A DNA stretch of 58,335 nt. It comes from Candidatus Daviesbacteria bacterium (GTDB taxonomy: Bacteria > Patescibacteriota > Microgenomatia > Daviesbacterales > UBA10151). Below are positions 42,277 through 54,546 of this stretch, piece by piece; position 1 is the first letter of the stretch, and the number at the start of each line of letters is the position of its first letter. The translations under genes and the position numbers were made by a program. The stretch is from positions 1 through 58,335 of the forward strand of contig JACPZA010000031.1 in the NCBI GenBank assembly GCA_016195715.1, read 5' to 3'. Under the pieces are notes generated by a model that made no database searches, was not told the DNA's origin, and was given only the letters and a program-made list of their open reading frames with translations.

Positions 42277-42717
42277 TTAAATTCTTTTTAAAATAATCAC
42301 CAATAAAAAAACTGCCACTACTTGGGTGACAATTCCCCAAGGTAGCTTAGCTTTTCCTTGAATTGAAGACATAAATTTATAAATCCAGGAAAAAGGGGGA
42401 AAGCGCCAGTTCAAAAACCAATAAGGAGCTTCAATAATATCCAGAGCTTCTGAAGCTAAAACACAAGTTACAAAATAGCCAAAATTAACTCTTTGCCCAA
42501 AGATTAGATAAGATAATATAAATCCTAAACAGAGATCAAAAGCCGCCTCTAGGAAAAATTTCAACTTAGTTTTTTTTCTCCAACCCCAACCAAAATCCCA
42601 ATGGGGAACCATATCTAAAACTATGTGGGAAGTTAACGCTAAACTTACACCCAAGACTGGATCAGGAATTGTGGCTGCAATTGCTCCACCAACCAGAGCA
42701 TGGGTTGTAGCGGTCAT
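42277..42717 (-). CDS. Membrane protein with His/Asp motifs (putative metal-dependent hydrolase)
   Basis: TTHALVG, SHIVLDMVPHWD; several TM segments. Confidence 0.65.
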   Translation of the reverse strand: MTATTHALVGGAIAATIPDPVLGVSLALTSHIVLDMVPHWDFGWGWRKKTKLKFFLEAAFDLCLGFILSYLIFGQRVNFGYFVTCVLASEALDIIEAPYWFLNWRFPPFSWIYKFMSSIQGKAKLPWGIVTQVVAVFLLVIILKRI

Positions 42718-42777
42718 AATGGCCAGTATATCCCAATTGGTCAAAGTCAGTCAAATTTGGTAATATTGAGCAAGCAA

Positions 42778-43692
42778 ATGTATCCAATTCTGTTTAAAAT
42801 TGGTTCTTTATCTATCTCTTCCTTTGGACTCTTTCTATCTTTAGGACTACTTTTTGGCACTTTTATTATTTGGAGACTTTCTAAAGTTTATGATTTAGAT
42901 CCAGAGAAAACTTTAGATTTAATATTTCTGACTTTTTTTGGAGGGATTATTGGGGGAAGGCTTTATTATGTTTTATTCCATTTATCCGAATTTAAAAATT
43001 TAACTAGAATTTTTTTGATTAACCGTTACCCAGGCTTGTCTTTTTGGGGAGGCTTTTTTATTGGCTTTTTAATTTTAAATTATTTAACAAAGAGACAAAA
43101 ATTAAATTTTTGGTTAGTGGCAGATTTAGCTGCTGTAGGTTTTTTTGCAGGTTTAAGCTTAGGAAGCTTAGGTTGTCTTTTGGGTAGCTGTCAATACGGA
43201 GTAACATCAAATTTACCCTTTGCAGTTACTCAAATTGGGGTAATTGGCGGGAGGTTACCAGTTCAATTTGGTTATTTTATATTATTTTTACTGGCTTTAA
43301 TTTTTCTTTGGCGAATGTGTTTAAGATTTCATTTTACAGGCAAAGTTGCATCTGTTGCATTGATTCTGCTTGGCTTAATCAAGTTTCCACTAGATTTTTA
43401 CCGTGGCGACGAACCTAAAGTTTTAGGAAATTTTAACGAGGGACATTTCTTTGCTGTCTTCTCAGCTCTTTTAGGAATTGTTATCTATTACAGGCAAAGC
43501 AAAAAGTCCTTTATTACCGACTTAAAGTTTTTAGCCTATTTTTTTATAAATTCAAAAGTTAGGAATACTACACTATCAAAGTTTAATAAGACTTGGTATA
43601 ATCTTAAAGTTAATTTTAGGATTTCTTATCTAAATTTCAAAAAACAACTATTTAAAAAATTAAATGTTAAATCTAACCCGAACCAATTTTAA
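42778..43692 (+). CDS. lgt: Lgt-family protein with degenerate catalytic motifs
   Basis: MYPILFKIG start, GGRLYYV, GLSFWGG, P.Q, DFYRGD. Confidence 0.78.
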   Translation: MYPILFKIGSLSISSFGLFLSLGLLFGTFIIWRLSKVYDLDPEKTLDLIFLTFFGGIIGGRLYYVLFHLSEFKNLTRIFLINRYPGLSFWGGFFIGFLILNYLTKRQKLNFWLVADLAAVGFFAGLSLGSLGCLLGSCQYGVTSNLPFAVTQIGVIGGRLPVQFGYFILFLLALIFLWRMCLRFHFTGKVASVALILLGLIKFPLDFYRGDEPKVLGNFNEGHFFAVFSALLGIVIYYRQSKKSFITDLKFLAYFFINSKVRNTTLSKFNKTWYNLKVNFRISYLNFKKQLFKKLNVKSNPNQF

Positions 43693-44023
43693 CTCTATAA
43701 AAAATAAGCTTCTTAGACAAAAGCAAAAAGTTGAAGGAGAACTTAGAGAACTAGATAAAAAAGATCCAGTCATGTTAGACGGGTTGGCTGAAAGCAGTGA
43801 ACCTGGAACTGAGTCGTGGATGGCTGATGTGCACAATCAAGTGGTAGCAGTTAAGCAAAATTTACATGCGCTTCTTTCTAAAATTAAAAAATCTTTAGTT
43901 AATTTAAAAACTGGCAAATATGGAAAGTGTGAAGTTTGTGGTAAGATTATTGAAAGAGCTAGACTTGAAGCTATGCCAACTGCAACTGATTGTTTATCAT
44001 GTTCTAAAAAAGCTTTCAAATGA
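43664..44023 (+). CDS. TraR/DksA C4 zinc-finger protein
   Basis: Coiled coil plus YGKCEVCG..I...RLEAMP....CLSC. Confidence 0.92.
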   Translation: MLNLTRTNFNSIKNKLLRQKQKVEGELRELDKKDPVMLDGLAESSEPGTESWMADVHNQVVAVKQNLHALLSKIKKSLVNLKTGKYGKCEVCGKIIERARLEAMPTATDCLSCSKKAFK

Positions 44024-44033
44024 TCTTCTAGTT

Positions 44034-44080
44034 AAAACTTATATAACCCTCATGTTTACTTCTTACAAAACTTATCTAAC
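44034..44080 (+). promoter_or_regulatory. 14-bp direct repeat upstream of the ammonia-lyase operon
   Basis: aaaacttatataac (44034) / aaaacttatctaac (44067), 33-bp period. Confidence 0.45.
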
Positions 44081-44116
44081 TATTAATTTTGGGGCAAAAA
44101 ATATAGATCTTTTAAT

Positions 44117-45808
44117 ATGATGAGTAGTTCCTCTAAAAAATATTCTGACAAATATGTAATTGCAATTGACAAAGAGATCACTTATCAACCTCAAAAAATT
44201 GTTCTAAATGGAAAAAACTTAACGATTCAAGAAGTTTTAGCTGTTTCTAGAAATAAATTTAACTTCGAACTCACTACAGATTCTAAGGTGATTAATAGAA
44301 TAGAAGAATGCTTTCAAAAGATGATGGAGGATGTCAAAAATGGTGTGCCAGTTTATGGGGCTAATACAGGTTATGGTGCCCAAGCTTCTAGAGTATTAAC
44401 TCAGGGTTCACCAACAGAGCGGGTTAATTTGGCTAAATTGATCTCAGAAGGGATTGCGCATGTTGATGTAACAGTTGGGCCAACTTTTTCAGCTGATGTA
44501 ATAAGGGCAGCGATATTGATCAGGATTAATATGCTAATGCAGGGTGTAAGTGGGATTAAAATAGATGATTTAAAAATTTATCAGCAACTTTTAAATAATC
44601 AAATAACCCCAGTCGTCAATCAATATGGAGGAATTGGAGCCTCTGGAGACTTAGCTCACAATGGTCGGGTTTTAAGTGCTGCTCGAGGTTTAAAAGGGGT
44701 TCAGGTTTGGAATAAAACAGGCAAAATTGTCGAGGCCAGTGAAGCTTTAAAAAAAGCTCATATTCCACTGCTAAATTTAAACCCTAAAGCAGGATTAGGA
44801 CTTGTGAATGGAGATAATTTTTCATCAGCACTGGCACTTCTTTTAACTGTTGATACTTTGGAATTATTGCTGATTAGTACAGTTGTAGGTGCAATGATGA
44901 TTGAGGTTTTGCATGGAACAGACAGATCTTTTCATCCCGTATTAAGCGAGGTGCGTCCACATCCAGGACAAAGAGAAGTTGCTAGTCTGTATAGATATTT
45001 ACTCAAGGGAAGCAAATTGGCTTACCAGGAGATGTCCGGACATCAGTTAAGACCAGATGGCATTAAGGTTCAGGATGCTTATAGTTTAAGAGGAATTTCT
45101 CAATATCAAGGTGTTAATTTTGAAAAGATTAAATCACTTCTGGAAATAATTGAAATTAATATTAACTCAGTTTCTGATAATCCTCTTTGGGTACCTCCCG
45201 AATACACCGTAGACGATGAAAAACCCTGGCAATGGGTGAGTGGGGGAAATTTTTTAGCAATGCATATGGTAGAAGTTATGGATTCCCTTAGAAAAATTAT
45301 GACCCAAATTGTAAAGTTAAATGATCGTCATCTAGCTAGACTTGTTAATCCAAACGATAATAATGGTTTACCTCCTAATTTATCAGATAAGTCAGCTATA
45401 ACAGGTTGTGCGTTTAAGGGTGTACAAATTCAATCAGGTATGTTTGAGGTTTATTCATCGCTTTTGTCAATTCCAGTAAGTACTTTTTTTGGAGTTCATG
45501 AAGAGGGAAATCAAGATATAACTTCGCATGCTCTAACTTCTGGAATTTTTGGTTTGGAAAATTTAAGAATTGCTAGGTACTCAATAGCTCAAAATTTATT
45601 AGCAGTTGCTCAAGCTGTAGATTTTCGAGGAGGAATAACTAAGCTGTCCCCAAAAACTCAAGCAGTTTATAAGCTAATTCGAGATAGTGTAGATTACTTA
45701 GGAGAGGAAAAACCCTTGAATAATGATATTGAAGCTATCTATCAAGCTCTTATTAATGGTGATTTAATTAATTTAATTAGAGAGAAAGTTTTTAGTGAGT
45801 ACAGCTAA
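44117..45808 (+). CDS. MIO-dependent aromatic amino acid ammonia-lyase/aminomutase, probably Tyr-preferring
   Basis: VYGANTGYG, GASGDL (ASG MIO), LVNG, QDAYSLR, NSVSDNP, SGGNF, NNGLP, HEEGNQD. Confidence 0.93.
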   Translation: MMSSSSKKYSDKYVIAIDKEITYQPQKIVLNGKNLTIQEVLAVSRNKFNFELTTDSKVINRIEECFQKMMEDVKNGVPVYGANTGYGAQASRVLTQGSPTERVNLAKLISEGIAHVDVTVGPTFSADVIRAAILIRINMLMQGVSGIKIDDLKIYQQLLNNQITPVVNQYGGIGASGDLAHNGRVLSAARGLKGVQVWNKTGKIVEASEALKKAHIPLLNLNPKAGLGLVNGDNFSSALALLLTVDTLELLLISTVVGAMMIEVLHGTDRSFHPVLSEVRPHPGQREVASLYRYLLKGSKLAYQEMSGHQLRPDGIKVQDAYSLRGISQYQGVNFEKIKSLLEIIEININSVSDNPLWVPPEYTVDDEKPWQWVSGGNFLAMHMVEVMDSLRKIMTQIVKLNDRHLARLVNPNDNNGLPPNLSDKSAITGCAFKGVQIQSGMFEVYSSLLSIPVSTFFGVHEEGNQDITSHALTSGIFGLENLRIARYSIAQNLLAVAQAVDFRGGITKLSPKTQAVYKLIRDSVDYLGEEKPLNNDIEAIYQALINGDLINLIREKVFSEYS

Positions 45809-47276
45809 TCATCTAAAAAAGTCAAATCAATTACTGTTTAAAAATTGGCTATTCAACCAATCCTTTTATGATACTAGCTTATTAAAAAATGAAGCTTTGC
45901 TTATAAAGATTGCTAAACAAAAAGCTTTAAAGTTATTTCATAGTGCAGCGCTTAGAGTTCCGGCATATAAAGATTTTTTAAAAAAAAAATCTATTAAACC
46001 TTCTTTAATTAAAACCTTTGCTGATTTTGAAAAAATCCCTGTAACTTCTAAAGAAAATTATATTGAGACTTATTCTATGAAGGAGCGGTGTTGGGATGGT
46101 CAACTTGAAGGTATGCACATGATCTCAACAAGTTCTGGTACAACTGGTAAACCACTTCTTTGGCCTAGGGACTTAATTAGCGAAATTGAGGGAGCATTTG
46201 CTCATGAACTAATTTTGAAAAATATTTTTTCTGTGGATAAAAAAAAGACTTTATTTTTAAATGGTTTTGCCATGGGGAATTGGATTGCTGGTACTTTTAC
46301 AACAGCTTGTGTTAATTTGGTTTCTTGGAAAGGTTATAAGCTAACTTTGATGACTCCAGGCTATGTCTTAAAAGCCATCGTAGATATTTTGCAAGAAGAG
46401 TTCATAAATGACTTTGATCAAATTATCCTAACTGGGCATACACCTTTTTTAAAAGAAATAGTTGAAGAAATTGTTAAACAAAAGATTAATTTAACTAAAA
46501 TTGATTTTCGGTTGCTTGGAACTGGACAAGCAATTAGTGAAAATTGGCGCGATTATTTAATTAATCTTTTAAAAGGCGATGAAACTTCAGTTATTAATCT
46601 CTATGGATCTGCTGATGCAGCTTTGATGGGATTTGAAACTCCCTTATCAATCAAAATTAGAAAATTTATCTTTGCAAATCAAAACATAAATAAAAAACTT
46701 TTTCAAAAAAATAGATTTCCATCAATTTATAATTTTGATCCAAGACTAACTTTTTTTGAGGCAATTGATGGAGAACTTTGTATTACCAAAAATTCTGGTT
46801 GTCCATTAATTAAATATAATATTCATGATGAAGGAGGAGTGTTAAAAAATCAGGAATTGAGTAGTTTACTGAGTGAAGATGTAGAATTTCAACTCCCATT
46901 TGTTTATTTATTTGGTAGAGAAAAGTTCATGGTAAAATTTTTTGGAGCCAATCTTTATTCAGAACATATCCAATTTGCTCTCAATCACCAAAAGCTTCAA
47001 CCATTTATCACTGGAAGGTATTTAGCAGAAGTGGGGACTGATGAATCTCATAATGATAAATTAATTTTTAAGATTGAATTAGCCAGTGGAGTAAACCAAG
47101 AGGAGAATTTAGTTAAATTAATACAAGAAACTTTTATGAATGAAGTTAAAAAAATAAATAGTGAGTATGATTATGTACTAAATCAAATGGGAGTGAAAGC
47201 AATACCAGAGATAAATTTATTTGAACACGGACATCCAGATTATTTTCCTTTAGATAAAATCAAAAAAAATGGTTAA
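45795..47276 (+). CDS. PaaK/phenylacetate-CoA-ligase-like adenylate-forming enzyme
   Basis: VPAYKDFL, TSSGTTGKP, YGSAD, PLIKYNIHD, FGR, terminal KIK. Confidence 0.88.
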   Translation: MSTANHLKKSNQLLFKNWLFNQSFYDTSLLKNEALLIKIAKQKALKLFHSAALRVPAYKDFLKKKSIKPSLIKTFADFEKIPVTSKENYIETYSMKERCWDGQLEGMHMISTSSGTTGKPLLWPRDLISEIEGAFAHELILKNIFSVDKKKTLFLNGFAMGNWIAGTFTTACVNLVSWKGYKLTLMTPGYVLKAIVDILQEEFINDFDQIILTGHTPFLKEIVEEIVKQKINLTKIDFRLLGTGQAISENWRDYLINLLKGDETSVINLYGSADAALMGFETPLSIKIRKFIFANQNINKKLFQKNRFPSIYNFDPRLTFFEAIDGELCITKNSGCPLIKYNIHDEGGVLKNQELSSLLSEDVEFQLPFVYLFGREKFMVKFFGANLYSEHIQFALNHQKLQPFITGRYLAEVGTDESHNDKLIFKIELASGVNQEENLVKLIQETFMNEVKKINSEYDYVLNQMGVKAIPEINLFEHGHPDYFPLDKIKKNG

Positions 47277-48303
47277 AACAAAAAAAATTAAGCTTTCCAA
47301 TCGAGCAAAGCAGGAACTTCTAATTGAATTATGGGAGGATGCTGCGTTTAATAGAAATTCTTATCTGGAGCTGGAAAAGATGATTATAAACTATAAAAAG
47401 TCTAGACAAGAAAAATGTGATTTTGAATTAACTGATTTAGAAATTCTTTTTAATCTTTCTACATCACGAAATAGAAATTTAATAAATTATGAACAACAAA
47501 GAAACCTTTCAAGTAAGATAGTTGGTTTTTTTGGCTTAAGCGTTGGAAGTCACGCAGCCATTACTTGGATTATAGAATCAAGATCTAGAGTAATAAAAAT
47601 TTCGGATCCAGATAAAATTTCTCCAACGAACTTAAATCGTTTGAGGTTAGGTTGGGAAGATATTGGGAAAGATAAAGTTGATGTGGTTAAACATCAATTA
47701 CTTAAAATAAACCCTTATCTAAATATAGTTCTAACAAAAAAAACTGATTTTAATACCATAAACAATATTTTTAATAATTCTCCAAAACTATCTGCTGTTA
47801 TTGATGCGATCGACGATATGGAAGGAAAAATTATTTTAAGAAAACTAGCAAAAGAGAATAAAATTCCTTTAATCTCGGCTGCAGATGTTGGAGATAATAT
47901 CGTATTAGATATAGAGAGATATGACCAAGATTTAAATCTTGAGCCTTTCTTAGGAAGGATTAGTAAGCAAGAAATTCAGTCTTTTCCCAAAATGTCAGAT
48001 CTTGAAAAAAAGAAAATGATTATTAAATTAGTGGGTTTTGAAGAAAACAGCGAACAAATGCTTGATTCTTTACTTGCGTTAGGGAAAGATCTTTCGACTT
48101 GGCCTCAACTAGGTGCGACTGCTACTATCGCAGGCGGAATAATCACAACGACTTTAAAAAAGATTTTTCTGGGAGAAAAAATAAAATCAGGCAGGTATTA
48201 TTTCTCCTTAGATTCGATACTCGTTCAGGATTTTAATTCAAAAACTAACCAAAAAGTGCGCAATGAAAAAATTAAGCAAATTAAGACTAAGTTTAAAATA
48301 TAG
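47269..48303 (+). CDS. ThiF-family adenylyltransferase (Rv1355c/OxzB/TyzB-like)
   Basis: SRNRNLI..EQQ, GFFGLSVGS, DPD.IS.TNLNR, DAIDD...K, DIERYD, WPQL. Confidence 0.88.
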   Translation: MVKTKKIKLSNRAKQELLIELWEDAAFNRNSYLELEKMIINYKKSRQEKCDFELTDLEILFNLSTSRNRNLINYEQQRNLSSKIVGFFGLSVGSHAAITWIIESRSRVIKISDPDKISPTNLNRLRLGWEDIGKDKVDVVKHQLLKINPYLNIVLTKKTDFNTINNIFNNSPKLSAVIDAIDDMEGKIILRKLAKENKIPLISAADVGDNIVLDIERYDQDLNLEPFLGRISKQEIQSFPKMSDLEKKKMIIKLVGFEENSEQMLDSLLALGKDLSTWPQLGATATIAGGIITTTLKKIFLGEKIKSGRYYFSLDSILVQDFNSKTNQKVRNEKIKQIKTKFKI

Positions 48304-48312
48304 AATGTACTT

Positions 48313-49404
48313 ATGAATTTTAATTTAACTGATAAAGAGATAGAGACACTTTTTAGGGCAGGAGAGCAATCTCCTTCTGGAGGAAATGTTCAACCTTGGA
48401 ACGTATCTCTTAAAAAAAACCTAATAGAGGTTACTTTGGATCCGATTCGCTCTAAAATTAGTGATTTTTTAGATGTTCACTGCTTTGCTTCTATCTTTGC
48501 TCTAGGGTGTTTTACTGAAAATATCTTGATTGCTGCAAGAAGCTTAGGTTTAAAATTTAATTATGAATTAAAAACTTCAGAAAAAGTAGAGTATTTTAAA
48601 GTTCAGATAACGTTTTTCGGGAGAGAGAAAGTTTATACAACAGAAGATCTTAGTATCTACGTTCCAAAGCGAGTAACAAATCGTCAAATATCAGATGGCA
48701 CAGTAATCGATCAAAAAGATATTGAATTGCTCATTAAACAATGCTTAGCTTTTTCAAAAGGACAGTTTAATTTAAATACATGCTCATCAAGTACTTCAAA
48801 AAAAAATATTGCTAGAATTTTAGGTAAGGCTGATGGAATAAGAATGACAAAACAAGAAACCTACGAACAAATGATGAGAGAATTTCGTTGGTCTGAATCA
48901 GAGGCAAAGCTATCAAAAGATGGTCTAGATCTAAAAACCCTAGAGCTACCTGGCAATGTAGAAAAACTTTTTTTTCTAATTCGAGACTATCCATTTATAA
49001 GAGAAAAATTTCCTTTAAAAATTTTTGAAGATTTTGCAAAACCTTTACTTTTAAATAGTTCACATCTTTGTTGTTTATCTACAAATTCTTCATTGAGTCC
49101 TCAAGTACTATTTGAGGGAGGGAGGATTTTAGAAAGAATTTGGTTAATTTCTACTAAACTTAATCTAGCTTTTCAACCCTGGACACCTCTTATCTATTTT
49201 TTAATCAGAACTGATTATTTTAAGGGAGAAGGATTTTCTAAGGAAGAGATTAAGTCAGTAAGAAATTTAGGAAAATTATTACGTAAAGAATTTTCTTTGA
49301 AAAATAAAGCTAATTTAGTTTTCTTCTTTAGGCTTTCTAAAGCAAAACCTGCCAGTTATAGGTCTATTAAAAGATCTTGGAGTGAATTTGTAACTATAAA
49401 TTAG
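48313..49404 (+). CDS. Nitroreductase-fold FMN oxidoreductase (Acg/TyzC-like)
   Basis: SPSGGNVQPW, ALGC..EN, RVTNR, DGLD..TLEL, GGR.LERIWL...LAFQP. Confidence 0.85.
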   Translation: MNFNLTDKEIETLFRAGEQSPSGGNVQPWNVSLKKNLIEVTLDPIRSKISDFLDVHCFASIFALGCFTENILIAARSLGLKFNYELKTSEKVEYFKVQITFFGREKVYTTEDLSIYVPKRVTNRQISDGTVIDQKDIELLIKQCLAFSKGQFNLNTCSSSTSKKNIARILGKADGIRMTKQETYEQMMREFRWSESEAKLSKDGLDLKTLELPGNVEKLFFLIRDYPFIREKFPLKIFEDFAKPLLLNSSHLCCLSTNSSLSPQVLFEGGRILERIWLISTKLNLAFQPWTPLIYFLIRTDYFKGEGFSKEEIKSVRNLGKLLRKEFSLKNKANLVFFFRLSKAKPASYRSIKRSWSEFVTIN

Positions 49405-49453
49405 AAAATGTTTTAGTTGCAGCTTATGTCGTTTGGGATTTATTATAATACAT

Positions 49454-51646
49454 ATGCTATCTTTTGATCTTTTATTTGTGATTATTGCCGTTATTGGTAA
49501 TTTCATTTTAGGTTTATTTACTCTTCGCAAAAACCCTAAAAGTGCTACTAATTTATTGTTTTTTCTTTTTACTATCTCTATCACTACTTATATAATTTTT
49601 AATTTCTTAGTTACTTATCAAAAAACTGACCAGGCAGCCTTTTTTTGGGTAAAAGCAGTGATGAGTAATGCTGTTTTTATTAATTTGTTGTTTTTTTTAC
49701 TTACTTCAACTTTCCCAAGTCCTAAATTTTCATTAAATCGAAAAATTTTCTGGGCTTCGACTATTTTTTCGCTTTTTTTGGCTCCCGCAGCACAGCTCAA
49801 TTTGATTTTTATATCCGCTAAGGCTTCAGGAGGTGGGGGAGTTCCAGGAATAGCTATGCCATTTTTTCTTTTGCATACTGCACTTTATTTAGGAGGCGGT
49901 TTTATCACTCTTGTAAAAACTTTTAGAAAATCTAATGGATTTGAAAAAGAACAAGTTAAACTTTTTTTATTTGGCACAATTTTAATGTTTATTTCTATTC
50001 TGTTTGGAAATTTACTTCTGATTTTAATTTTTAATAATAGTTCATTTATTGGGCTATTACCAATTTACACTTTAATTTTTATAAGCACTATAAGTTATGC
50101 AATCGTGAAGAATAAATTTTTAGATATTAACTTGCTAGTTGCAAGATCTGTAGTTTATACACTTTTGGTTTTCATAATCGCATTATTCTATACCGGCTCG
50201 ATATTTAGCGTAACTAATTTATTTTTTAATGGTCAGATAACTCGTTTGCAAGCCATAATTTATTCAGTATTTGCTCTTTTTGTCGCCCTAACTTATCCAT
50301 ATTTAAAACAAGCTATTGAAAAGTTAACTGATAAAGTTTTGTTTAAAAATAATTATGACTCAAATGAGCTTTTATCTTCTCTGACAAAAATAATGGCATC
50401 AACCTTGCAGCTTGAGGATTTAACTAGACTAACTTTGCATAAATTACTTGAGACAGTGCACATTAGCAAAGGAGCTTTTTTAATTTTGGAAGAACAGAAA
50501 TTTTACCCTCCAATAGCTGAAGGTTTTGATAATACTAATTTTAACAGCAGTTTAATGGAGTGGCTTTGTAGTTTTAAAAAAATCTTAATTTTTGATGAGG
50601 AAGAAAATCCTAAGATTAAAATAATTTTAAGACAATTGAATTTTTCAGTGGTGTTACCACTTTTTGTGGGCCAAACTATTCATGGACTTTTGGTTTTAGG
50701 CGATAAAAAGTCTGGTGAAATTTATTCAAGTCAAGATATTAAAATGTTGGAAATTTTTGGACCAGAAGTTTCGGTTGCAGTCCAAAATTCTAAAGCTTAT
50801 GAAGAGATTAAGCGCTTTAATATTACTTTAAAAGAAGAAATTGATAAAGCCACAAAAGATTTACAAGTTGCAAACAAAAGGTTGGAAGAGTTAGATAAAA
50901 TAAAAGATGACTTTGTCTCGGTTGCTTCCCATGAACTGCGGACTCCTATGACCGCGGTTAGGTCTTATGCTTGGATGGCGTTAAATAGACCAGATGTACC
51001 TTTATCTGAAAAACTTAAAAAATATTTGCAGCGAACTTTAATTTCCACAGAACGATTAATAAATTTAGTCAATGATATGTTGAATATCTCAAGAATTGAA
51101 TCAGGTAAAATTGAAATTAATCCTCAAGCATTTGATGTTGAAACTCTAGTTGATGATGTTTTACTAGAAGTTGGTCCAAAAGCCAAAGAGAAAAATCTGC
51201 ATTTAGTCTCTTATAAAACTCAAATTCCCAAAGTTTTTGCTGATCCAGACAAGGTTCATCAAGTATTGCTAAATTTAGTAGGCAATGCTCTTAAATTTAC
51301 CCCCGAAAATGGAGGGGTAAGTATTTCATTTTTTACGGATGGACAAATGGTAGATATTTCAATAAAAGATACTGGGGTTGGAATAAGTTCAGATGATCAA
51401 AGACGCCTCTTCCAAAAATTTGGCAGGCTTGATTATTCTTATGTTGCCTCAGCTACATCTGGGGGGACAGGTTTGGGACTATTTATTTGCAAAAGTTTAG
51501 TCAGCTTAATGAAAGGAAAGATTTGGGCAGAGTCTGATGGAATAAATATGGGTTCAACTTTTTCTTTTTCACTACCAGCAGCAACCCCAGAGGTTTTAAA
51601 ACAAGCGGGAAAATATACTACTAAAGTAGACGGTGAAGAGGGTTAA
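49454..51646 (+). CDS. Membrane sensor histidine kinase (N-terminal 7TM-type sensor, extra TMs, GAF, HisKA, HATPase)
   Basis: About 9 TM segments with KNPKSATN and YAIVK..LDI; GAF LGDKKSGEIYS..DI; SHELRTP; NALKF; GGTGLGL. Confidence 0.93.
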   Translation: MLSFDLLFVIIAVIGNFILGLFTLRKNPKSATNLLFFLFTISITTYIIFNFLVTYQKTDQAAFFWVKAVMSNAVFINLLFFLLTSTFPSPKFSLNRKIFWASTIFSLFLAPAAQLNLIFISAKASGGGGVPGIAMPFFLLHTALYLGGGFITLVKTFRKSNGFEKEQVKLFLFGTILMFISILFGNLLLILIFNNSSFIGLLPIYTLIFISTISYAIVKNKFLDINLLVARSVVYTLLVFIIALFYTGSIFSVTNLFFNGQITRLQAIIYSVFALFVALTYPYLKQAIEKLTDKVLFKNNYDSNELLSSLTKIMASTLQLEDLTRLTLHKLLETVHISKGAFLILEEQKFYPPIAEGFDNTNFNSSLMEWLCSFKKILIFDEEENPKIKIILRQLNFSVVLPLFVGQTIHGLLVLGDKKSGEIYSSQDIKMLEIFGPEVSVAVQNSKAYEEIKRFNITLKEEIDKATKDLQVANKRLEELDKIKDDFVSVASHELRTPMTAVRSYAWMALNRPDVPLSEKLKKYLQRTLISTERLINLVNDMLNISRIESGKIEINPQAFDVETLVDDVLLEVGPKAKEKNLHLVSYKTQIPKVFADPDKVHQVLLNLVGNALKFTPENGGVSISFFTDGQMVDISIKDTGVGISSDDQRRLFQKFGRLDYSYVASATSGGTGLGLFICKSLVSLMKGKIWAESDGINMGSTFSFSLPAATPEVLKQAGKYTTKVDGEEG

Positions 51647-51709
51647 GTTACTTGAGCCCGCAGCGCTTTAAAACTTGCTATTTTGGCTTAAATTCGCTAA
51701 ATTAAAACT

Positions 51710-52099
51710 GTGGATCCAAAAAATAAAAAGATTTTAATAGTTGAGGATGATCAATTTTTAAGGGAGTTTTATCAAGAACTTTTATCAACTGAAGGATTTG
51801 TGGTAGATGTAGCAGCAGATGGGGAAATAGCCAATACTAAAATTCACCAAGGTGGTTTTGATTTAATAATGTTAGATATCATGCTTCCCAAAAAAGATGG
51901 TTTGCAAATCTTGCGCGACTATAAAACTAACCCACCAGCAGTTGAAAACGGACCAATTGTAGTTTTAACCAATTTAGGCCAAGATACAATTATTAAACAA
52001 GCCTTTGATTTAGGAGCTTCAGGATATATTGTTAAATCTGCCTTAAATCCAGATCAAGTTTTAGATGAGATTCATAACTACTTAAAAGTCAACGCTTAA
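51710..52099 (+). CDS. Single-domain response regulator
   Basis: ILIVEDD, LDIMLPKKDG, LTNL, YIVK. Confidence 0.94.
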   Translation: MDPKNKKILIVEDDQFLREFYQELLSTEGFVVDVAADGEIANTKIHQGGFDLIMLDIMLPKKDGLQILRDYKTNPPAVENGPIVVLTNLGQDTIIKQAFDLGASGYIVKSALNPDQVLDEIHNYLKVNA

Positions 52100-52108
52100 T
52101 TTTTTTCA

Positions 52109-52873
52109 GTGGCTGCACTAACTATTATTTACCAGGATCCAAATCTCTTAGTTATTGATAAACCAGCTGGTTTGACAGTTTCTCCAACTGAAACAAGTTC
52201 TGATGAAACTTTAGCAGATATCATTAAAAAAGATTTTAACATTGATTTAGAGCGAGCAGGCATAGTTCACAGGTTAGATAAAGATACATCAGGGGTAATT
52301 TTAGTTGCTAAAACTACTGAAGCTCTAGAAAATCTCCAACACCAATTTCAAACTAGAGAAGTTAAAAAAGAATATCTAACTTTAGTTCACGGATTTTTAC
52401 AAAGTGCTGGACAAATTATTGCTCCAATTGGCAGAAACCCAAAAAATAGAGAAAAGTTTACAGTTTTAGTTGGTGGTAAAGAAGCTCAAACTACTTATCA
52501 AACGCTTAAACACTTAGAAATGCCAGAGGATGTTTTGGATGAGCTTTTTGCTGATTTCTCTAAAATCCAGATGCGCAAATTAGCTAACTTAAACTATTCA
52601 AAATTTAGTTTAGTTAGAGTTTTGCCTTTAACGGGTAGAACTCACCAAATTAGAGTTCACTTAAAGCATATTGGTTTTGCGATTGTAGGGGATGAAAAAT
52701 ATGGTGGCAGAAAAATTGTCAGATTAGATCACAGATTTTGTCAAAGGCAATTTTTACATGCTAGTAAAATTTCCTTTAAACATCCAAAAACAAATGAGCA
52801 GTTAGTTTTTGAAAGCCCAATACCAGATGATTTAAAAAATGCCTTAAGTCTTCTTAAAAAGGTCACTATTTAG
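52109..52873 (+). CDS. RluA/RluD-family pseudouridine synthase without S4 domain
   Basis: DKPAGL, VHRLDKDTSG, TGRTHQIRVH, GDEKYG, LHA. Confidence 0.95.
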   Translation: MAALTIIYQDPNLLVIDKPAGLTVSPTETSSDETLADIIKKDFNIDLERAGIVHRLDKDTSGVILVAKTTEALENLQHQFQTREVKKEYLTLVHGFLQSAGQIIAPIGRNPKNREKFTVLVGGKEAQTTYQTLKHLEMPEDVLDELFADFSKIQMRKLANLNYSKFSLVRVLPLTGRTHQIRVHLKHIGFAIVGDEKYGGRKIVRLDHRFCQRQFLHASKISFKHPKTNEQLVFESPIPDDLKNALSLLKKVTI

Positions 52874-52890
52874 TATGATGTAATTAAGCT

Positions 52891-54546
52891 ATGAATACTA
52901 TTTTTTTACAGTTGGCTGCTGTGCTTTTTTTGTCTTCAGTATTTGGTTATTTAATTAAATTTTTAAAGTTACCCTTAATTGTGGCTTATTTACTAGCAGG
53001 AGTAACTATCTCCGGGGCAACAACTATTTTTAGCAGCTATAATCTCATACCTTCAAACTGGCAAGTTTTAACTTTTTTACCTGGAATTGGTTTAGCTTTT
53101 GTCCTGTTTTTAATTGGAATGGAGCTTGATTTAAGAGAGATTAAATCCCTGGGTAAACCGATTTTAATTACCTCTTTAGGCCAGATTACGATCACTTTTT
53201 TAGCTGGTTTTGCTATCTCAGGTTGGTTAGGCTTTAGCCAAGTAGAAAGTATCTTTTTGGGTTTAGGTTTATCTTTTTCTTCAACCATTGTGATAGTTAA
53301 GCTGCTGTTAGAAAAAAAAGATTTGGCCTCTTTATATGGCAAACTATCTTTAGGGATTACATTAGTAGAAGATTTGGTAGCCATCACTGCTTTAATGGTT
53401 ATTACAGTTGGCAGCTCTGTTTTTAACCTAGGTTTGCAACAAAGTTTTCCCATTCTGATTTTAATTGTTAAAGCAGCAGGTTTATTTTTATTAACATTTG
53501 TTTTATCGAAGTACGTTTTGGAAAATATCTTTAAAGCAGTAGCTAAAAATGTTGAGTTGCTATTTTTAACAGCTATTGCTTGGTGTTTTATTTTTACCTC
53601 TTTAGCTCTGCTTTTAGGTTTTTCTATTATTATAGGTGCTTTTTTAGCAGGAGTAGCTTTAGCATCTTCTCCATATCATTTTCAAATTCAAAGCAAAGTT
53701 AAGCCGTTAAGGGACTTCTTCTTAACCTTATTTTTTGTTTATCTAGGTTCTCAAGTTAAGTTAGGGGATTTATTATCAGCTTGGGGAGCTATTAGCGCAT
53801 TAACTCTTTATGCAATTGTAGTTAAGCCTTTAATTTTTTTGTTGCTTTTAGGAATCTTTGGATTTAGAAAACACACCCTTTTTCATACAGCTCTAAACCT
53901 CTCTCAAATCTCAGAATTTTCTTTAGTCATTATGTTATTTGGACTTAGCAATGGTTCTGTTAGACCGCTAGCTTTATCAGTAATTGCTATGGTTGGAGTT
54001 TTGTCTATTACAGTTTCTTCAACCATGATTACTTATTCCAGACAAATTTACCAAATCTTCTCTCCCTTCTTAAATTTCTTTGAACATAAATCAATGGTCC
54101 ATGTTCTAGAGAATAAGAAAAAAGAAGAAAAAAAGGACCATGTAGTAGTTGTTGGAGGAGAAGGAATAGGTGGGCCGGTGATTAGATTTTTAAAAAGAGA
54201 AGGAATTCCAGAGATGGTGGTGGATTTTAATCCTCATGTCATTGAAAGATTGCAAAAAAATGGAATTGAAGCAATTTATGGGGATATTGCTGACCCAGAT
54301 ATTTTAGATTTTTTGCAACTAGAAAATTCTAAAGTTATTATTTCAGCAGTTGATCATGATGAAGACAATGAACAGTTGCTAAGGGAGTTAAAAAGAAGAA
54401 AAATTAAAGCCTTAATGATCATTAGAGCTTCAGATCCAGACCAAAGTGAGTTGTTTAAGGAGTTGGGAGCAGATTATGTAGTTTTACCAGAGAAAGTCTC
54501 TGGTGAGTTTCTAGTTAATAAATTAAAAACTAGCTGGCTTCATTAA
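52891..54546 (+). CDS. CPA2 cation:proton antiporter with TrkA_N domain (Kef-like)
   Basis: LFLIGMEL, SSTIVIVK, VEDL, GAFLAG, QISEFS; C-terminal GDIAD...GADYVV.PE. Confidence 0.93.
   Translation: MNTIFLQLAAVLFLSSVFGYLIKFLKLPLIVAYLLAGVTISGATTIFSSYNLIPSNWQVLTFLPGIGLAFVLFLIGMELDLREIKSLGKPILITSLGQITITFLAGFAISGWLGFSQVESIFLGLGLSFSSTIVIVKLLLEKKDLASLYGKLSLGITLVEDLVAITALMVITVGSSVFNLGLQQSFPILILIVKAAGLFLLTFVLSKYVLENIFKAVAKNVELLFLTAIAWCFIFTSLALLLGFSIIIGAFLAGVALASSPYHFQIQSKVKPLRDFFLTLFFVYLGSQVKLGDLLSAWGAISALTLYAIVVKPLIFLLLLGIFGFRKHTLFHTALNLSQISEFSLVIMLFGLSNGSVRPLALSVIAMVGVLSITVSSTMITYSRQIYQIFSPFLNFFEHKSMVHVLENKKKEEKKDHVVVVGGEGIGGPVIRFLKREGIPEMVVDFNPHVIERLQKNGIEAIYGDIADPDILDFLQLENSKVIISAVDHDEDNEQLLRELKRRKIKALMIIRASDPDQSELFKELGADYVVLPEKVSGEFLVNKLKTSWLH

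What the first reader, a model, noticed from the sequence alone, without database searches (positions are those of the whole stretch)
44117..52099. Candidate small-molecule synthesis-and-sensing system: ammonia-lyase, aryl-adenylating ligase, ThiF, nitroreductase, membrane sensor kinase, receiver
Seen: four tightly coupled enzyme genes (overlaps of 14 and 8 nt, then a 9-nt gap) directly followed by a multi-TM GAF kinase and a receiver protein, sitting between dksA-like and rluA-like housekeeping genes. Known: ThiF plus nitroreductase pairs (OxzB fusion; M. tuberculosis TyzB/TyzC) cyclise and desaturate N-acyl amino acids to oxazolones. MIO lyases make cinnamate or p-coumarate, and PaaK-like enzymes adenylate aryl acids. 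Inference: Tyr/Phe -> (hydroxy)cinnamate -> acyl-AMP/CoA -> N-aroyl amino acid -> conjugated oxazolone-like product sensed by the adjacent kinase. That would be a quorum- or host-signalling circuit in a lineage thought to have little secondary metabolism. I know of no description of this combination.
Basis: partly seen in the sequence, partly recalled or inferred. Interest (0 to 1): 0.92.

Follow-up and report, generated by a model that had tools for sequence, protein, structure and literature searches.

The report
Aryl-oxazolone-type operon with membrane sensor kinase
A tiny-genome groundwater bacterium carries a tightly packed operon that probably turns amino acids into an oxazolone-type small molecule without the usual acyltransferase, and it sits beside a seven-helix sensor kinase whose relatives across the phylum often follow similar enzyme sets, so the product may be a signal.

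Summary
In detail: six co-directional genes at 44117-52099 with the stated overlaps.

They encode:
- an MIO ammonia-lyase;
- a PaaK-fold adenylating ligase;
- a split TrzS/Rv1355c-type ThiF cyclase plus Acg/TyzC-type flavin oxidase;
- a HisKA_7TM(-GAF) histidine kinase;
- a lone receiver.

Of 39 ligase loci with at least 6 kb on both sides, 35 also hold the kinase and ThiF, although gene order is shuffled. The ligase occurs in 43 of 401 sampled Patescibacteria genomes, and 39 of these have the kinase within about 7 kb.

New here: the 7TM kinase family is much wider (179 of 401 genomes). In 31 of 73 ligase-free kinase loci the genes just upstream are ThiF, FeeM-type N-acyl amino acid synthase or methyltransferase genes. 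These are the gene families of known oxazolone and N-acyl-dehydrotyrosine clusters. The ligase and the synthase never co-occur, so the ligase probably replaces the synthase.

Limits: the oxidase is optional, the GAF domain is not conserved, and neither the product nor its sensing has been shown.

This scan has reported the same operon on other genomes. I found no published description. I class it as a new variant of a known kind.

The parts
44117..45808 (+). MIO-type aromatic amino-acid ammonia-lyase (or aminomutase), 563 aa; proposed to supply a deaminated aryl-acrylic acid
   Evidence: Pfam Lyase_aromatic 2e-113. NCBIfam PAL 1e-94, HAL 1e-87 and FlxA TAL 6e-61, all below the equivalog cut-offs. 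Closest solved structures are cyanobacterial PALs 2nyn and 2nyf, 2e-59. The Ala-Ser-Gly MIO triad (residues 175-177) and the loop Tyr80 are present. The selectivity pair aligned to AvPAL F107-L108 is Leu-Ile.
45795..47276 (+). PaaK-fold adenylating (ANL) ligase, 493 aa, GTG start; proposed CoA-independent acyl-AMP-forming amide synthetase that replaces the usual N-acyl amino acid synthase
   Evidence: No Pfam hit. NCBIfam FlxY 4e-12 and PaaK 3e-11. 611 homologs, mostly CPR. Conserved P-loop-like Ser/Thr/Gly motif, an invariant Asp in the hinge motif and a nearly invariant C-terminal Lys491. AF2 pLDDT 91.5. Foldseek: PaaK1 2y27 at E 2e-23, TM 0.68/0.77; also NatL2, AjiA1 and ClxA.
47269..48303 (+). 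ThiF/E1-like ATP-dependent adenylating cyclase, 344 aa (N-terminal half of TrzS-type oxazolone synthetase)
   Evidence: Pfam ThiF 7e-19. NF005901 Rv1355c family 4e-52 over profile positions 86-354. 29% identity to a fused Mycobacterium sp. Rv1355c-family protein, with the Gly-rich loop, the D-x-D...NLNR motif and the D-x-x-D motif kept. Fused ThiF-nitroreductase relatives are 27-35% identical.
48313..49404 (+). Long nitroreductase-superfamily flavin-dependent oxidase, 363 aa (C-terminal half of TrzS; TyzC/Acg type); proposed C-alpha/C-beta desaturase
   Evidence: NF005901 1.5e-52 over profile positions 372-719; NF011424 4e-41; Acg family NF047509 8e-25. Aligns along the C-terminal half of the fused protein, with the Arg of the E-x-R-W motif kept.
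49433..51646 (+). Sensor histidine kinase, 737 aa: HisKA_7TM bundle (nt 49478-50128), weak GAF (50405-50785), HisKA (50903-51106), HATPase_c (51242-51583)
   Evidence: Pfam. The sensor half (residues 1-470) matches only PrsK TIGR02916, 1.2e-8, collinear over 31-459. The 7TM model has pLDDT 88.5 and seven membrane helices plus a linker helix. It has no significant solved relative, only weak GPCR-like bundles at E about 5e-3.
51710..52099 (+). Stand-alone receiver (CheY-like) protein, 129 aa, no output domain
   Evidence: Pfam Response_reg 9e-24 over residues 8-119 of 129. A receiver lies within 8 kb in 23 of 39 full-flank ligase loci, either after the kinase or divergently upstream.

Best explanation
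This is a biosynthesis-plus-sensing module of the oxazolone / N-acyl-(dehydro)amino-acid kind, built in a CPR-specific way.

Inferred steps:
1. The MIO enzyme deaminates an aromatic amino acid to an aryl-acrylic acid.
2. The PaaK-fold ligase adenylates that acid and passes it directly to the amino group of a second amino acid. It thereby does the job of the missing N-acyl amino acid synthase without acyl-CoA or acyl-ACP.
3. The ThiF-like enzyme adenylates the carboxylate of the N-aroyl amino acid, which ring-closes to a 5(4H)-oxazolone.
4. The flavin oxidase desaturates it. The free product may be the conjugated oxazolone or its hydrolysed dehydro-amino-acid form.
5. The lipophilic product is sensed in the membrane by the PrsK-like 7TM kinase of the same operon, which phosphorylates the lone receiver.

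Shown here: gene content, family membership, intact motifs, and conserved linkage of the enzymes to the kinase. Inferred: every chemical step, the identity of both amino acids, and the ligand-receptor relation.
For: (a) The family assignments and intact motifs are listed under parts.

(b) Linkage. Within 8 kb of the ligase, 35 of 39 full-flank loci have the kinase and 35 of 39 have ThiF. Gene order is shuffled and the flanks differ. In a phylum-wide sample the ligase is in 43 of 401 genomes. By my hand comparison of the printed coordinates, 39 of these 43 have a 7TM kinase on the same contig within about 7 kb.

(c) Displacement. I took 73 ligase-free 7TM-kinase loci in score order. Their two upstream co-directional genes (108 genes in 62 loci) include ThiF 15, FeeM synthase 12 and methyltransferase 16 by Pfam. 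In 108 control genes from the same loci, ThiF and FeeM are not among the 25 listed families and the methyltransferase families count 3-4 members. With my own HMMs the counts are 14, 17 and 15 of 108, against 0, 0 and 9 of 346. No synthase was found in any of 79 ligase loci.

(d) The slot directly upstream of the ligase is filled by the MIO enzyme, or in L056, L057 and L062 by a Glu/Leu/Phe/Val-type amino-acid dehydrogenase. Both make a deaminated acid from an amino acid, which fits an acyl-donor supply role.

(e) CoA independence is plausible. The 99.5%-complete genome has no CoaE and no CoaBC (DFP) match. Its only carrier protein lies 53 kb away between nusB and rnc. The fold neighbours include the PaaK-family ligases NatL2, AjiA1 and ClxA.

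(f) Precedent. NAS+ThiF+nitroreductase(+methyltransferase) clusters make tyrazolones, tryptazolones and N-acyl dehydrotyrosines (PMC12856293, PMC12479983). In Bacteroidota two enzymes encoded next to luxR make N-acyl-cyclolysine quorum signals (passages in PMC13080023 and PMC13419125).

(g) Across 53 loci, enzyme divergence tracks the 7TM half of the kinase more than its catalytic core: r is 0.69-0.72 against 0.58, and the partial correlation is 0.53 against 0.28. This is weak evidence and confounded by saturation.
Against: No chemistry or ligand binding has been observed.
- The oxidase is absent from 15 of 39 full-flank loci. It was not found with this query in 5 genomes whose loci lack it. 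A desaturated oxazolone therefore cannot be the general product.
- The ligase scores far below the PaaK and FlxY cut-offs, and amide formation by it is pure inference.
- The lyase's selectivity pair (Leu-Ile) matches no characterised PAL, TAL or HAL pattern, and its first position varies within the family.
- The 7TM family occurs in 179 of 401 genomes, so the kinase is not specific to this cassette.
- In the kinase tree the ligase-linked kinases form about three lineage-bound groups, with other cassettes nested among them (9 label changes). Kinase phylogeny thus follows taxonomy more than cassette type.
- 42 of 73 ligase-free kinase loci have none of the three enzyme families upstream.
- Four full-flank ligase loci (L013, L028, L051, L066) have neither ThiF nor the kinase.
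- The receiver has no output domain, so the response is unknown.
Confidence: 0.5

Rival explanations
1. The kinase is a cluster-situated regulator. The enzymes make an oxazolone-type metabolite with another role (antimicrobial, host-directed effector or membrane component). The kinase senses an unrelated external cue and merely switches the operon, or other genes, on and off.
For: Linkage alone does not tell a ligand-receptor pair from a regulator-target pair. The kinase phylogeny follows lineage more than cassette type. 7TM kinases of the family also follow decarboxylase, UbiA and aminotransferase genes, or nothing recognisable. Stieleriacines act on competitors' biofilms (passage in PMC12479983).
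Against: The partner receiver has no DNA-binding output, so direct transcriptional control of the operon is not evident. The kinase lies inside the operon, downstream of the enzymes, in most loci. Enzyme divergence tracks the sensor half more than the kinase core.
Confidence: 0.25
2. Covalent tagging. The ThiF-activated N-acyl amino acid (acyl-adenylate or saturated azlactone) is not released as a signal. It acylates a nucleophile on a protein or lipid, possibly the kinase itself or a membrane amine.
For: ThiF is the most constant enzyme next to the kinase: 35 of 39 ligase loci and 14-15 of the ligase-free loci. The oxidase is optional. Saturated oxazolones accumulate when the oxidase is disabled (PMC12856293) and are chemically reactive acyl donors (my own knowledge).
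Against: No conserved Cys or Lys is among the nearly invariant 7TM positions, which are F36, N50, R67, P88, F119, Q167, G174, F209 and I217. No carrier or ubiquitin-like small protein gene lies in the operon, and the intergenic gaps are at most 93 nt. The characterised relatives release free small molecules.
Confidence: 0.1
3. Chromophore or cofactor supply. As with tyrosine ammonia-lyase plus coumarate ligase next to photoactive yellow protein genes (recalled), the enzymes make an aryl-acrylate prosthetic group for the kinase's GAF or 7TM domain, giving a light or redox sensor.
For: An MIO lyase plus a FlxY/PaaK-like ligase sit directly upstream of a GAF-containing kinase. The GAF domain is cytoplasmic, like the enzymes.
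Against: GAF is missing from 25 of 57 ligase-linked kinases, which are under 620 aa and have 7TM joined directly to HisKA. MIO is present in only 19 of 39 loci. There is no conserved Cys or Lys attachment site in the 7TM. This reading does not explain ThiF and the oxidase.
Confidence: 0.05
4. Catabolism or detoxification of aromatic amino acids or plant-type phenylpropanoids, induced through the two-component system.
For: Lyase plus aryl-acid ligase is also the start of cinnamate and coumarate degradation routes (general knowledge). JGI annotators call the ligase phenylacetate-CoA ligase.
Against: No hydratase, thiolase or ring-cleavage genes lie in or near the operon. No CoA biosynthesis genes were found. 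ThiF and the oxidase belong to a biosynthetic family. The ligase is interchangeable with a biosynthetic N-acyl amino acid synthase.
Confidence: 0.05

Closest known systems
Oxazolone pathways TrzAS (Rv1356c/Rv1355c), TyzACB (Mycobacterium tuberculosis and relatives) and OxzAB (Pseudoalteromonas rubra)
   Same: They share an ATP-dependent ThiF-like cyclase and a nitroreductase-superfamily flavin oxidase, split as in TyzB/TyzC. Both halves match the Rv1355c family model at about 1e-52, and the motifs around the residues mutated in TrzS are kept.
   Different: There is no N-acyl amino acid synthase (TrzA/TyzA/OxzA) here. The acyl donor appears to come from an MIO lyase and a PaaK-fold ligase, not from acyl-CoA. 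Scores are far below the equivalog cut-off (177-179 vs 476 bits). A sensor kinase and receiver lie in the operon; the papers I read describe neighbours as oxidase and acyltransferase only.
N-acyl dehydrotyrosine clusters (stieleriacines, thalassotalic and kyonggic acids): NAS + methyltransferase + ThiF + nitroreductase (PMC12479983, passages)
   Same: The same enzyme families (ThiF, nitroreductase, and in sister CPR loci NAS and methyltransferase) sit together. The end product may be the ring-opened dehydro-amino acid and not the oxazolone.
   Different: Those use long fatty acyl chains from a NAS. No kinase is reported beside them in the passages read. Here the donor is probably aryl, and the cluster is wired to a 7TM kinase.
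N-acyl-cyclolysine (ACL) quorum sensing of Bacteroidota (known to me only through passages in PMC13080023 and PMC13419125; original paper not seen)
   Same: Two adjacent enzymes make an acylated amino-acid-derived ring compound, and the receptor is encoded next to them. A ThiF-type protein of unknown name (PDB 9egb/9egc) is a distant sequence match of the window's ThiF (1.3e-4). Only an earlier scan note links that entry to ACL synthesis.
   Different: The receptor there is a cytoplasmic LuxR-type repressor, not a membrane kinase. The chemistry is lactam formation, with no oxidase, no MIO lyase and no ANL ligase.
PrsK/PrsR regulatory pair of PEP-CTERM/exosortase systems, with the TIGR03694 N-acyl amino acid synthase
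   Same: The sensor half of the kinase (membrane region plus GAF) matches only PrsK, collinearly over 31-459 (1.2e-8). The synthase in sister locus L089 passes the TIGR03694 cut-off (122.8 vs 112 bits). PrsK's stimulus is unknown (PMC1569441).
   Different: 34 bits against a 300-bit cut-off, so it is not PrsK. There is no sigma-54 PrsR, no PrsT and no exosortase context. The receiver here has no output domain.
Tyrosine ammonia-lyase plus aryl-acid ligase pairs (flexirubin FlxA/FlxY; photoactive yellow protein TAL/pCL, recalled)
   Same: An MIO lyase is directly followed by, and translationally coupled to, a FlxY/PaaK-like ligase.
   Different: Scores are far under the FlxA and FlxY cut-offs. 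There is no polyketide or PYP partner. The lyase's selectivity residues are not the His-Leu of TALs (the rule is recalled).
PaaK-family condensing ligases of benzoxazole pathways (NatL2, AjiA1, ClxA) and amide bond synthetase McbA
   Same: Same fold (Foldseek E 1e-19 to 4e-18 for NatL2, AjiA1 and ClxA; McbA 1.5e-11). From recall, NatL2 and AjiA1 couple the acyl-adenylate to a nucleophile without CoA.
   Different: Only 14-17% identity. PaaK1, a true CoA ligase, is the top hit. No evidence shows which second half-reaction this enzyme performs.

Membership tests
Oxazolone synthetase systems (OxzAB / TyzACB / TrzAS) | ThiF-like ATP-dependent cyclase of the TyzB/TrzS/OxzB clade with an intact adenylation motif | tested here: met
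   NF005901 4e-52 (177 bits, under the 476-bit full-length cut-off because only half the fused protein is present). Gly-rich loop, D-x-D...NLNR and D-x-x-D motifs are kept in the alignment to an Rv1355c-family protein.
Oxazolone synthetase systems (OxzAB / TyzACB / TrzAS) | Adjacent or fused nitroreductase-superfamily flavin-dependent oxidase (TyzC / Acg type) | tested here: met
   NF005901 C-terminal half 1.5e-52; Acg family 8e-25; the gene starts 9 nt after ThiF. Across relatives it is optional: 24 of 39 loci.
Oxazolone synthetase systems (OxzAB / TyzACB / TrzAS) | Adjacent N-acyl amino acid synthase (OxzA/TyzA/TrzA, FeeM-type GNAT) that makes the substrate | tested here: not met
   No such gene is in the window operon. 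None was found in 79 ligase loci with an HMM built from CPR synthases. The synthase is present instead of the ligase in sister kinase loci.
Oxazolone synthetase systems (OxzAB / TyzACB / TrzAS) | Product is an N-acyl 4-arylidene-oxazol-5-one | not testable with these tools
   Needs expression and LC-MS.
MIO-dependent aromatic amino-acid lyases and aminomutases | Ala-Ser-Gly MIO-forming triad and catalytic loop Tyr | tested here: met
   ASG at residues 175-177 and Tyr80, aligned to AvPAL Tyr78. All 34 aligned family members have ASG or TSG.
MIO-dependent aromatic amino-acid lyases and aminomutases | Substrate-selectivity pair (PAL Phe-Leu, TAL His-Leu, HAL Ser-His; rule recalled) | tested here: inconclusive
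   Leu-Ile here. The first position varies (K, M, L, A, S, R, Q, E...) among the Microgenomates-type homologs. The N-Q-D motif is PAL/TAL-like, not the HAL Q-E-D (rule recalled).
Phenylacetate-CoA ligase (PaaK) family of ANL enzymes | PaaK fold with ANL core motifs | tested here: met
   Foldseek PaaK1 2y27 at E 2e-23, TM 0.68/0.77. Conserved P-loop, hinge Asp and C-terminal Lys.
Phenylacetate-CoA ligase (PaaK) family of ANL enzymes | Equivalog-level sequence membership and CoA thioester formation | tested here: not met
   TIGR02155 scores 42.6 bits against a 646-bit cut-off, and there is no Pfam AMP-binding hit. The second half-reaction is not testable here.
HisKA_7TM / PrsK-like sensor kinases | N-terminal HisKA_7TM domain followed by HisKA and HATPase_c | tested here: met
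   PF16927 scores 35.5 bits (cut-off 28.6), with HisKA and HATPase_c. The model shows a seven-helix bundle.
HisKA_7TM / PrsK-like sensor kinases | PrsK equivalog (TIGR02916) with PrsR/PrsT/exosortase context | tested here: not met
   34 bits vs 300. No such neighbours.
Autoinducer synthase / membrane receptor-kinase pairs (quorum-sensing type) | Synthase genes and cognate receptor kinase conserved as neighbours across rearrangements | tested here: met
   35 of 39 loci and 39 of 43 genomes. Related cassettes lie upstream of 31 of 73 other family kinases.
Autoinducer synthase / membrane receptor-kinase pairs (quorum-sensing type) | Product is released, binds the receptor and gives a density-dependent response | not testable with these tools
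   No RNA data (no RNA holder listed); no biochemistry.
PYP-type chromophore supply (TAL + coumarate ligase + sensor) | Conserved attachment residue (Cys) in a conserved sensor domain | tested here: not met
   No conserved Cys or Lys in the 7TM. GAF is absent from 25 of 57 linked kinases.

The most novel reading that the evidence does not exclude
Patescibacteria (CPR) possess a phylum-wide, diversified family of self-made amino-acid-derived signals: N-acyl or N-aroyl amino acids, their oxazolones or dehydro forms, and methylated derivatives. Each is encoded directly upstream of its own PrsK-like seven-helix receptor kinase. The window's operon is the aryl variant, in which an MIO lyase and a CoA-independent PaaK-type amide synthetase replace the acyltransferase. 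This would give the first receptor for oxazolone / N-acyl amino-acid metabolites, whose physiological role the TrzAS paper calls a major unresolved question. It would also be the first cell-cell or symbiont-host chemical communication system of these ultra-small bacteria.
Probability: 0.35. Interest if true: 0.9.

Novelty: new variant of a known kind. Interest (0 to 1): 0.74.

Why it matters
Oxazolones and N-acyl dehydro-amino acids are a recently recognised metabolite class whose physiological role is open; PMC12856293 calls it 'a major unresolved question'. Here the oxazolone-forming enzyme pair is repeatedly wired to a dedicated membrane kinase, which gives a concrete, testable candidate receptor. 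CPR bacteria have minimal metabolism, the lowest histidine-kinase frequencies reported in a subsurface survey (PMC10805038), and depend on hosts. A conserved make-and-sense module in about one genome in ten (ligase type), and related cassettes in more, would bear on how they find or talk to partners. The pathway also suggests a CoA-free route to N-aroyl amino acids using a PaaK-fold ligase, which is of biocatalytic interest. All six genes are small and can be expressed in E. coli.

Tried and rejected
- RNA evidence: no RNA holder was listed for the stretch. Four DNA runs of one groundwater study hold it. I did not lay reads.
- Promoter and terminator scan: 39 promoter-like sites against 45.8 expected and 5 terminator-like sites against 6.4 expected, so it is uninformative.
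- PYP-like chromophore idea: raised, then dropped because GAF and MIO are not conserved and no attachment residue is conserved.
- Cassette-specific kinase clades: not found. The ligase label needs 9 changes on the kinase tree (FastTree, 130 rows), and other cassettes nest inside ligase-linked groups.
- Fold search of the 7TM model: no match at E<=0.001, only generic GPCR-type bundles at E about 5e-3, TM about 0.5.
- Oxidase elsewhere in genomes whose loci lack it: not found with this query in 5 of 5. These genomes carry no completeness figure.
- RiPP or azole reading (E1-like enzyme plus McbC-like dehydrogenase): rejected. There is no YcaO, no room for a precursor gene (gaps at most 93 nt), and far stronger matches to the TrzS family.
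- Literature searches found no paper describing the lyase-ligase-ThiF-oxidase-kinase set or a ligand for HisKA_7TM.
- Supplements are closed. The SSN and neighbourhood tables of PMC12856293 (Fig. S1) and of the de Rond preprint (Table S1, Fig. S5) could list CPR homologs that I could not see.
- One look-up failed on a word limit and was resent shorter.

Full report
**1. What is in the sequence**

Ten co-directional ORFs run from 42700 to 54546. The six of the finding lie at exactly the coordinates given. The spacing is: overlaps of 14 and 8 nt, then gaps of 9, 28 and 63 nt, and 9 nt on to rluA.

Pfam and NCBIfam identify the following:
- an MIO aromatic amino-acid lyase (2e-113);
- a ThiF-like protein and a long nitroreductase, which are the N- and C-terminal halves of the Rv1355c family model (4e-52 and 1.5e-52);
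- a kinase with HisKA_7TM, a sub-threshold GAF, HisKA and HATPase_c;
- a receiver with no output domain.

The second gene has no Pfam hit. Its weak NCBIfam matches are to FlxY and PaaK. Its AlphaFold model is confident (pLDDT 91.5), and its best fold matches are PaaK1 and other PaaK-family ligases, including NatL2, AjiA1 and ClxA.

The contig belongs to a 1.15-Mb, 99.5%-complete genome. Earlier notes of this scan call it Candidatus Daviesbacteria; I did not check that name. The stretch is held by four DNA runs of one groundwater study.

**2. Are the enzymes intact?**

- The lyase has the Ala-Ser-Gly triad and the loop tyrosine. At the pair aligned to AvPAL F107-L108 it has Leu-Ile, and the first of these positions varies among its close homologs. 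Its N-Q-D motif is PAL/TAL-like, not HAL-like. The substrate is therefore an open question (the rules are recalled).
- ThiF keeps the glycine-rich loop and both aspartate motifs. The oxidase keeps the arginine of an E-x-R-W motif. That arginine lies three residues from the number of the arginine mutated in M. smegmatis TrzS, so its equivalence is inferred.
- Fused ThiF-nitroreductase relatives are 27-35% identical.

**3. Is the gene set conserved?**

The ligase has 611 homologs at E<=1e-5 among 8000 scored candidates; the few that carry an organism name are mostly CPR. A scan of one genome per species gave 159 relatives, of which the best 80 loci were kept.

ORF clustering and HMM searches gave these counts:

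| Gene within 8 kb of the ligase | All 79 loci with a ligase ORF | 39 loci with >=6 kb on both sides |
|---|---|---|
| Kinase | 59 | 35 |
| ThiF | 59 | 35 |
| Oxidase | 40 | 24 |
| MIO | 35 | 19 |
| Receiver | 35 | 23 |

Gene order differs between lineages (for example MIO-ligase-ThiF-oxidase-kinase, ThiF-MIO-ligase-oxidase-kinase, and oxidase-ThiF-dehydrogenase-ligase-kinase), and the flanks differ too. This is therefore not residual synteny. The four full-flank exceptions (L013, L028, L051, L066) have the ligase alone.

In an even sample of the phylum the ligase is in 43 of 401 genomes (40 of 339 high-quality ones). It is not in the two other genomes of the same family. It is thus a patchy accessory module. 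By hand comparison of the printed coordinates, 39 of the 43 genomes have a 7TM kinase on the same contig within about 7 kb. The exceptions are G339, G047, G086 and G385.

**4. What varies**

- The oxidase is often missing, and ThiF then abuts the kinase. It was not found elsewhere in five such genomes with this query.
- The short kinases of the Parcubacteria-type loci lack GAF but keep HisKA_7TM. Of 57 ligase-linked kinases, 25 are under 620 aa. The conserved sensor is therefore the membrane bundle.
- The slot directly upstream of the ligase holds the MIO enzyme, or in L056, L057 and L062 a Glu/Leu/Phe/Val-type dehydrogenase. In several Saccharibacteria-type loci a class I/II aminotransferase lies divergently upstream; that could be mere synteny.
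- Both in-operon alternatives make a deaminated acid from an amino acid, which is what an acyl donor for N-acylation would be.

**5. The kinase family is wider than the operon**

A profile of the 7TM region finds matches in 179 of 401 genomes.

I fetched 76 regions, taken in score order from the listed matches that were not beside a ligase, plus G339, G086 and a same-family genome. Of these, 73 had a usable ligase-free kinase. In 62 of them one or two genes lie directly upstream, co-directional, with gaps of at most 200 nt, giving 108 genes.

| Family | 108 upstream genes, Pfam | 108 control genes >=3 genes away, Pfam | 108 upstream genes, own HMMs | 346 other genes, own HMMs |
|---|---|---|---|---|
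| ThiF | 15 | not among the 25 listed families | 14 | 0 |
| FeeM-type N-acyl amino acid synthase | 12 | not among the 25 listed families | 17 | 0 |
| SAM methyltransferase | 16 | 3-4 per family | 15 | 9 |

Pfam also found UbiA (4), histidine decarboxylase (3), aminotransferase (3) and Orn/Arg decarboxylase (2) among the upstream genes. The control genes were chosen at random from the same loci and were mostly housekeeping families. My synthase and methyltransferase HMMs were built from those same upstream genes, so that comparison is partly circular.

31 of 73 loci have at least one of the three families upstream, and 42 have none.

The small ThiF proteins match a 679-position profile (NF011424). 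Its first half takes ThiF proteins and its second half takes the window's oxidase, so it appears to model a ThiF-oxidase fusion (about 1e-38 to 1e-40). One synthase passes the cut-off of the exosortase-associated N-acyl amino acid synthase family.

These are the gene families of the tyrazolone/tryptazolone and stieleriacine-type clusters (PMC12856293 section 4 and passages; PMC12479983 passages). No synthase was found in any of 79 ligase loci. The simplest reading is non-homologous displacement: in the window's type of cassette the PaaK-fold ligase, fed by the lyase, does what the synthase does elsewhere.

**6. CoA**

The genome gave no match to CoaE or to the CoaBC DFP domain, while these models ring in 10 and 14 of 14 control genomes. 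Its one carrier protein lies 53 kb away between nusB and rnc. This favours a CoA-free second half-reaction but does not prove it. The carrier protein itself implies some phosphopantetheine source.

**7. Link to the kinase**

- For a ligand-receptor relation: the linkage counts above; the kinase's position as the last or second-last gene of the operon; the recurrence of related cassettes before paralogous kinases; and a stronger correlation of enzyme divergence with the 7TM half than with the catalytic core (which is confounded).
- Against: the kinase tree follows lineage, with cassettes swapped inside clades, and many family members follow unrelated genes.
- The 7TM model is a seven-helix bundle with no significant solved relative.
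- The whole sensor half matches only PrsK, weakly but collinearly. PrsK's stimulus is unknown (PMC1569441).
- I found no paper naming a ligand for HisKA_7TM. The term occurs in two papers, and I read passages of one.

**8. Comparison with what is known, and novelty**

The module works like an oxazolone / N-acyl-dehydro-amino-acid pathway joined to a synthase-receptor pair. It is not a member of OxzAB/TyzACB/TrzAS as defined, because the acyltransferase is absent, and its ligase is not a PaaK equivalog.

The nearest signalling precedent I could document is the N-acyl-cyclolysine system of Bacteroidota: two enzymes next to luxR, with secreted, density-dependent ligands. I saw only passages in PMC13080023 and PMC13419125, not the original paper.

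Eight literature searches found no description of this gene set. Supplements were closed.

This scan has already reported the same operon on at least eight other genomes, and the synthase-ThiF-kinase cassette on ten. Those are unchecked AI notes, and I re-derived the main points independently.
- the quantified displacement of the synthase by the ligase;
- the dehydrogenase alternative to the lyase;
- the optional oxidase;
- the wider distribution of the kinase family;
- the negative result on cassette-specific kinase clades.

**9. Verdict**

The feature is real and strongly conserved. Its chemistry is plausible but unproven, and sensing by the kinase is likely but unproven. I class it as a new variant of a known kind, of high interest because it offers a testable receptor for a metabolite class of unknown function in a poorly understood phylum.

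Noticed in passing
L029:13557-14486; also L033, L038, L068, L072 (gene just upstream of the kinase): A protein of about 305-380 aa with no Pfam hit at E<=0.01 recurs between the ligase/ThiF genes and the kinase in six loci (cluster 12). It may be an extra pathway component.
   Followed up: partly
L026, L027, L028, L034 (records titled Chloroflexia): Ligase homologs (35-37% identity) occur outside CPR without ThiF or the kinase. In L028 and L034 the ligase lies near a 2111-2133-aa ORF on the opposite strand. That ORF is unannotated.
   Followed up: no
L108, L125, L126, L139 (UbiA); L121, L129, L135 (pyruvoyl histidine decarboxylase type); L115, L118, L136 (Orn/Arg decarboxylase); L131, L133, L151 (aminotransferase): Other 7TM kinases of the family directly follow UbiA prenyltransferase, amino-acid decarboxylase or class I/II aminotransferase genes. 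Some of these may be polyamine operons and not signal cassettes.
   Followed up: partly
G000:C35:104652-104843 (L157:4123-4386, minus strand): The genome's only phosphopantetheine-carrier protein gene sits between nusB and rnc, while no CoaE or CoaBC was found. The source of its prosthetic group is unexplained.
   Followed up: partly
L083, L092, L109; genomes G065 (6 matches), G292 (5), G088, G089, G108, G175, G317 (4 each): Several genomes hold multiple 7TM-kinase paralogs, some in tandem and some truncated to the 7TM part.
   Followed up: no
L081:8856-12281 and L082 (genomes G018, G158): A ThiF (TrzS-type, 2e-32) and an Acg-type oxidase (7e-56, opposite strand) lie next to a high-scoring 7TM kinase without any ligase. 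Upstream is a 341-355-aa protein with no Pfam or NCBIfam match.
   Followed up: partly
L001-L023 record titles: Many loci with clearly CPR-like content carry depositor titles such as 'uncultured Gammaproteobacteria', 'Pseudomonadales' or 'Acidiferrales'. Taxon labels of these MAG records should not be relied on.
   Followed up: no
window 52109-54546: rluA starts 9 nt after the receiver, and a Na+/H+ exchanger-TrkA_N gene follows after 17 nt. The same receiver-rluA(-exchanger) order recurs in L002, L023 and L048, so the operon's 3' boundary is uncertain.
   Followed up: partly
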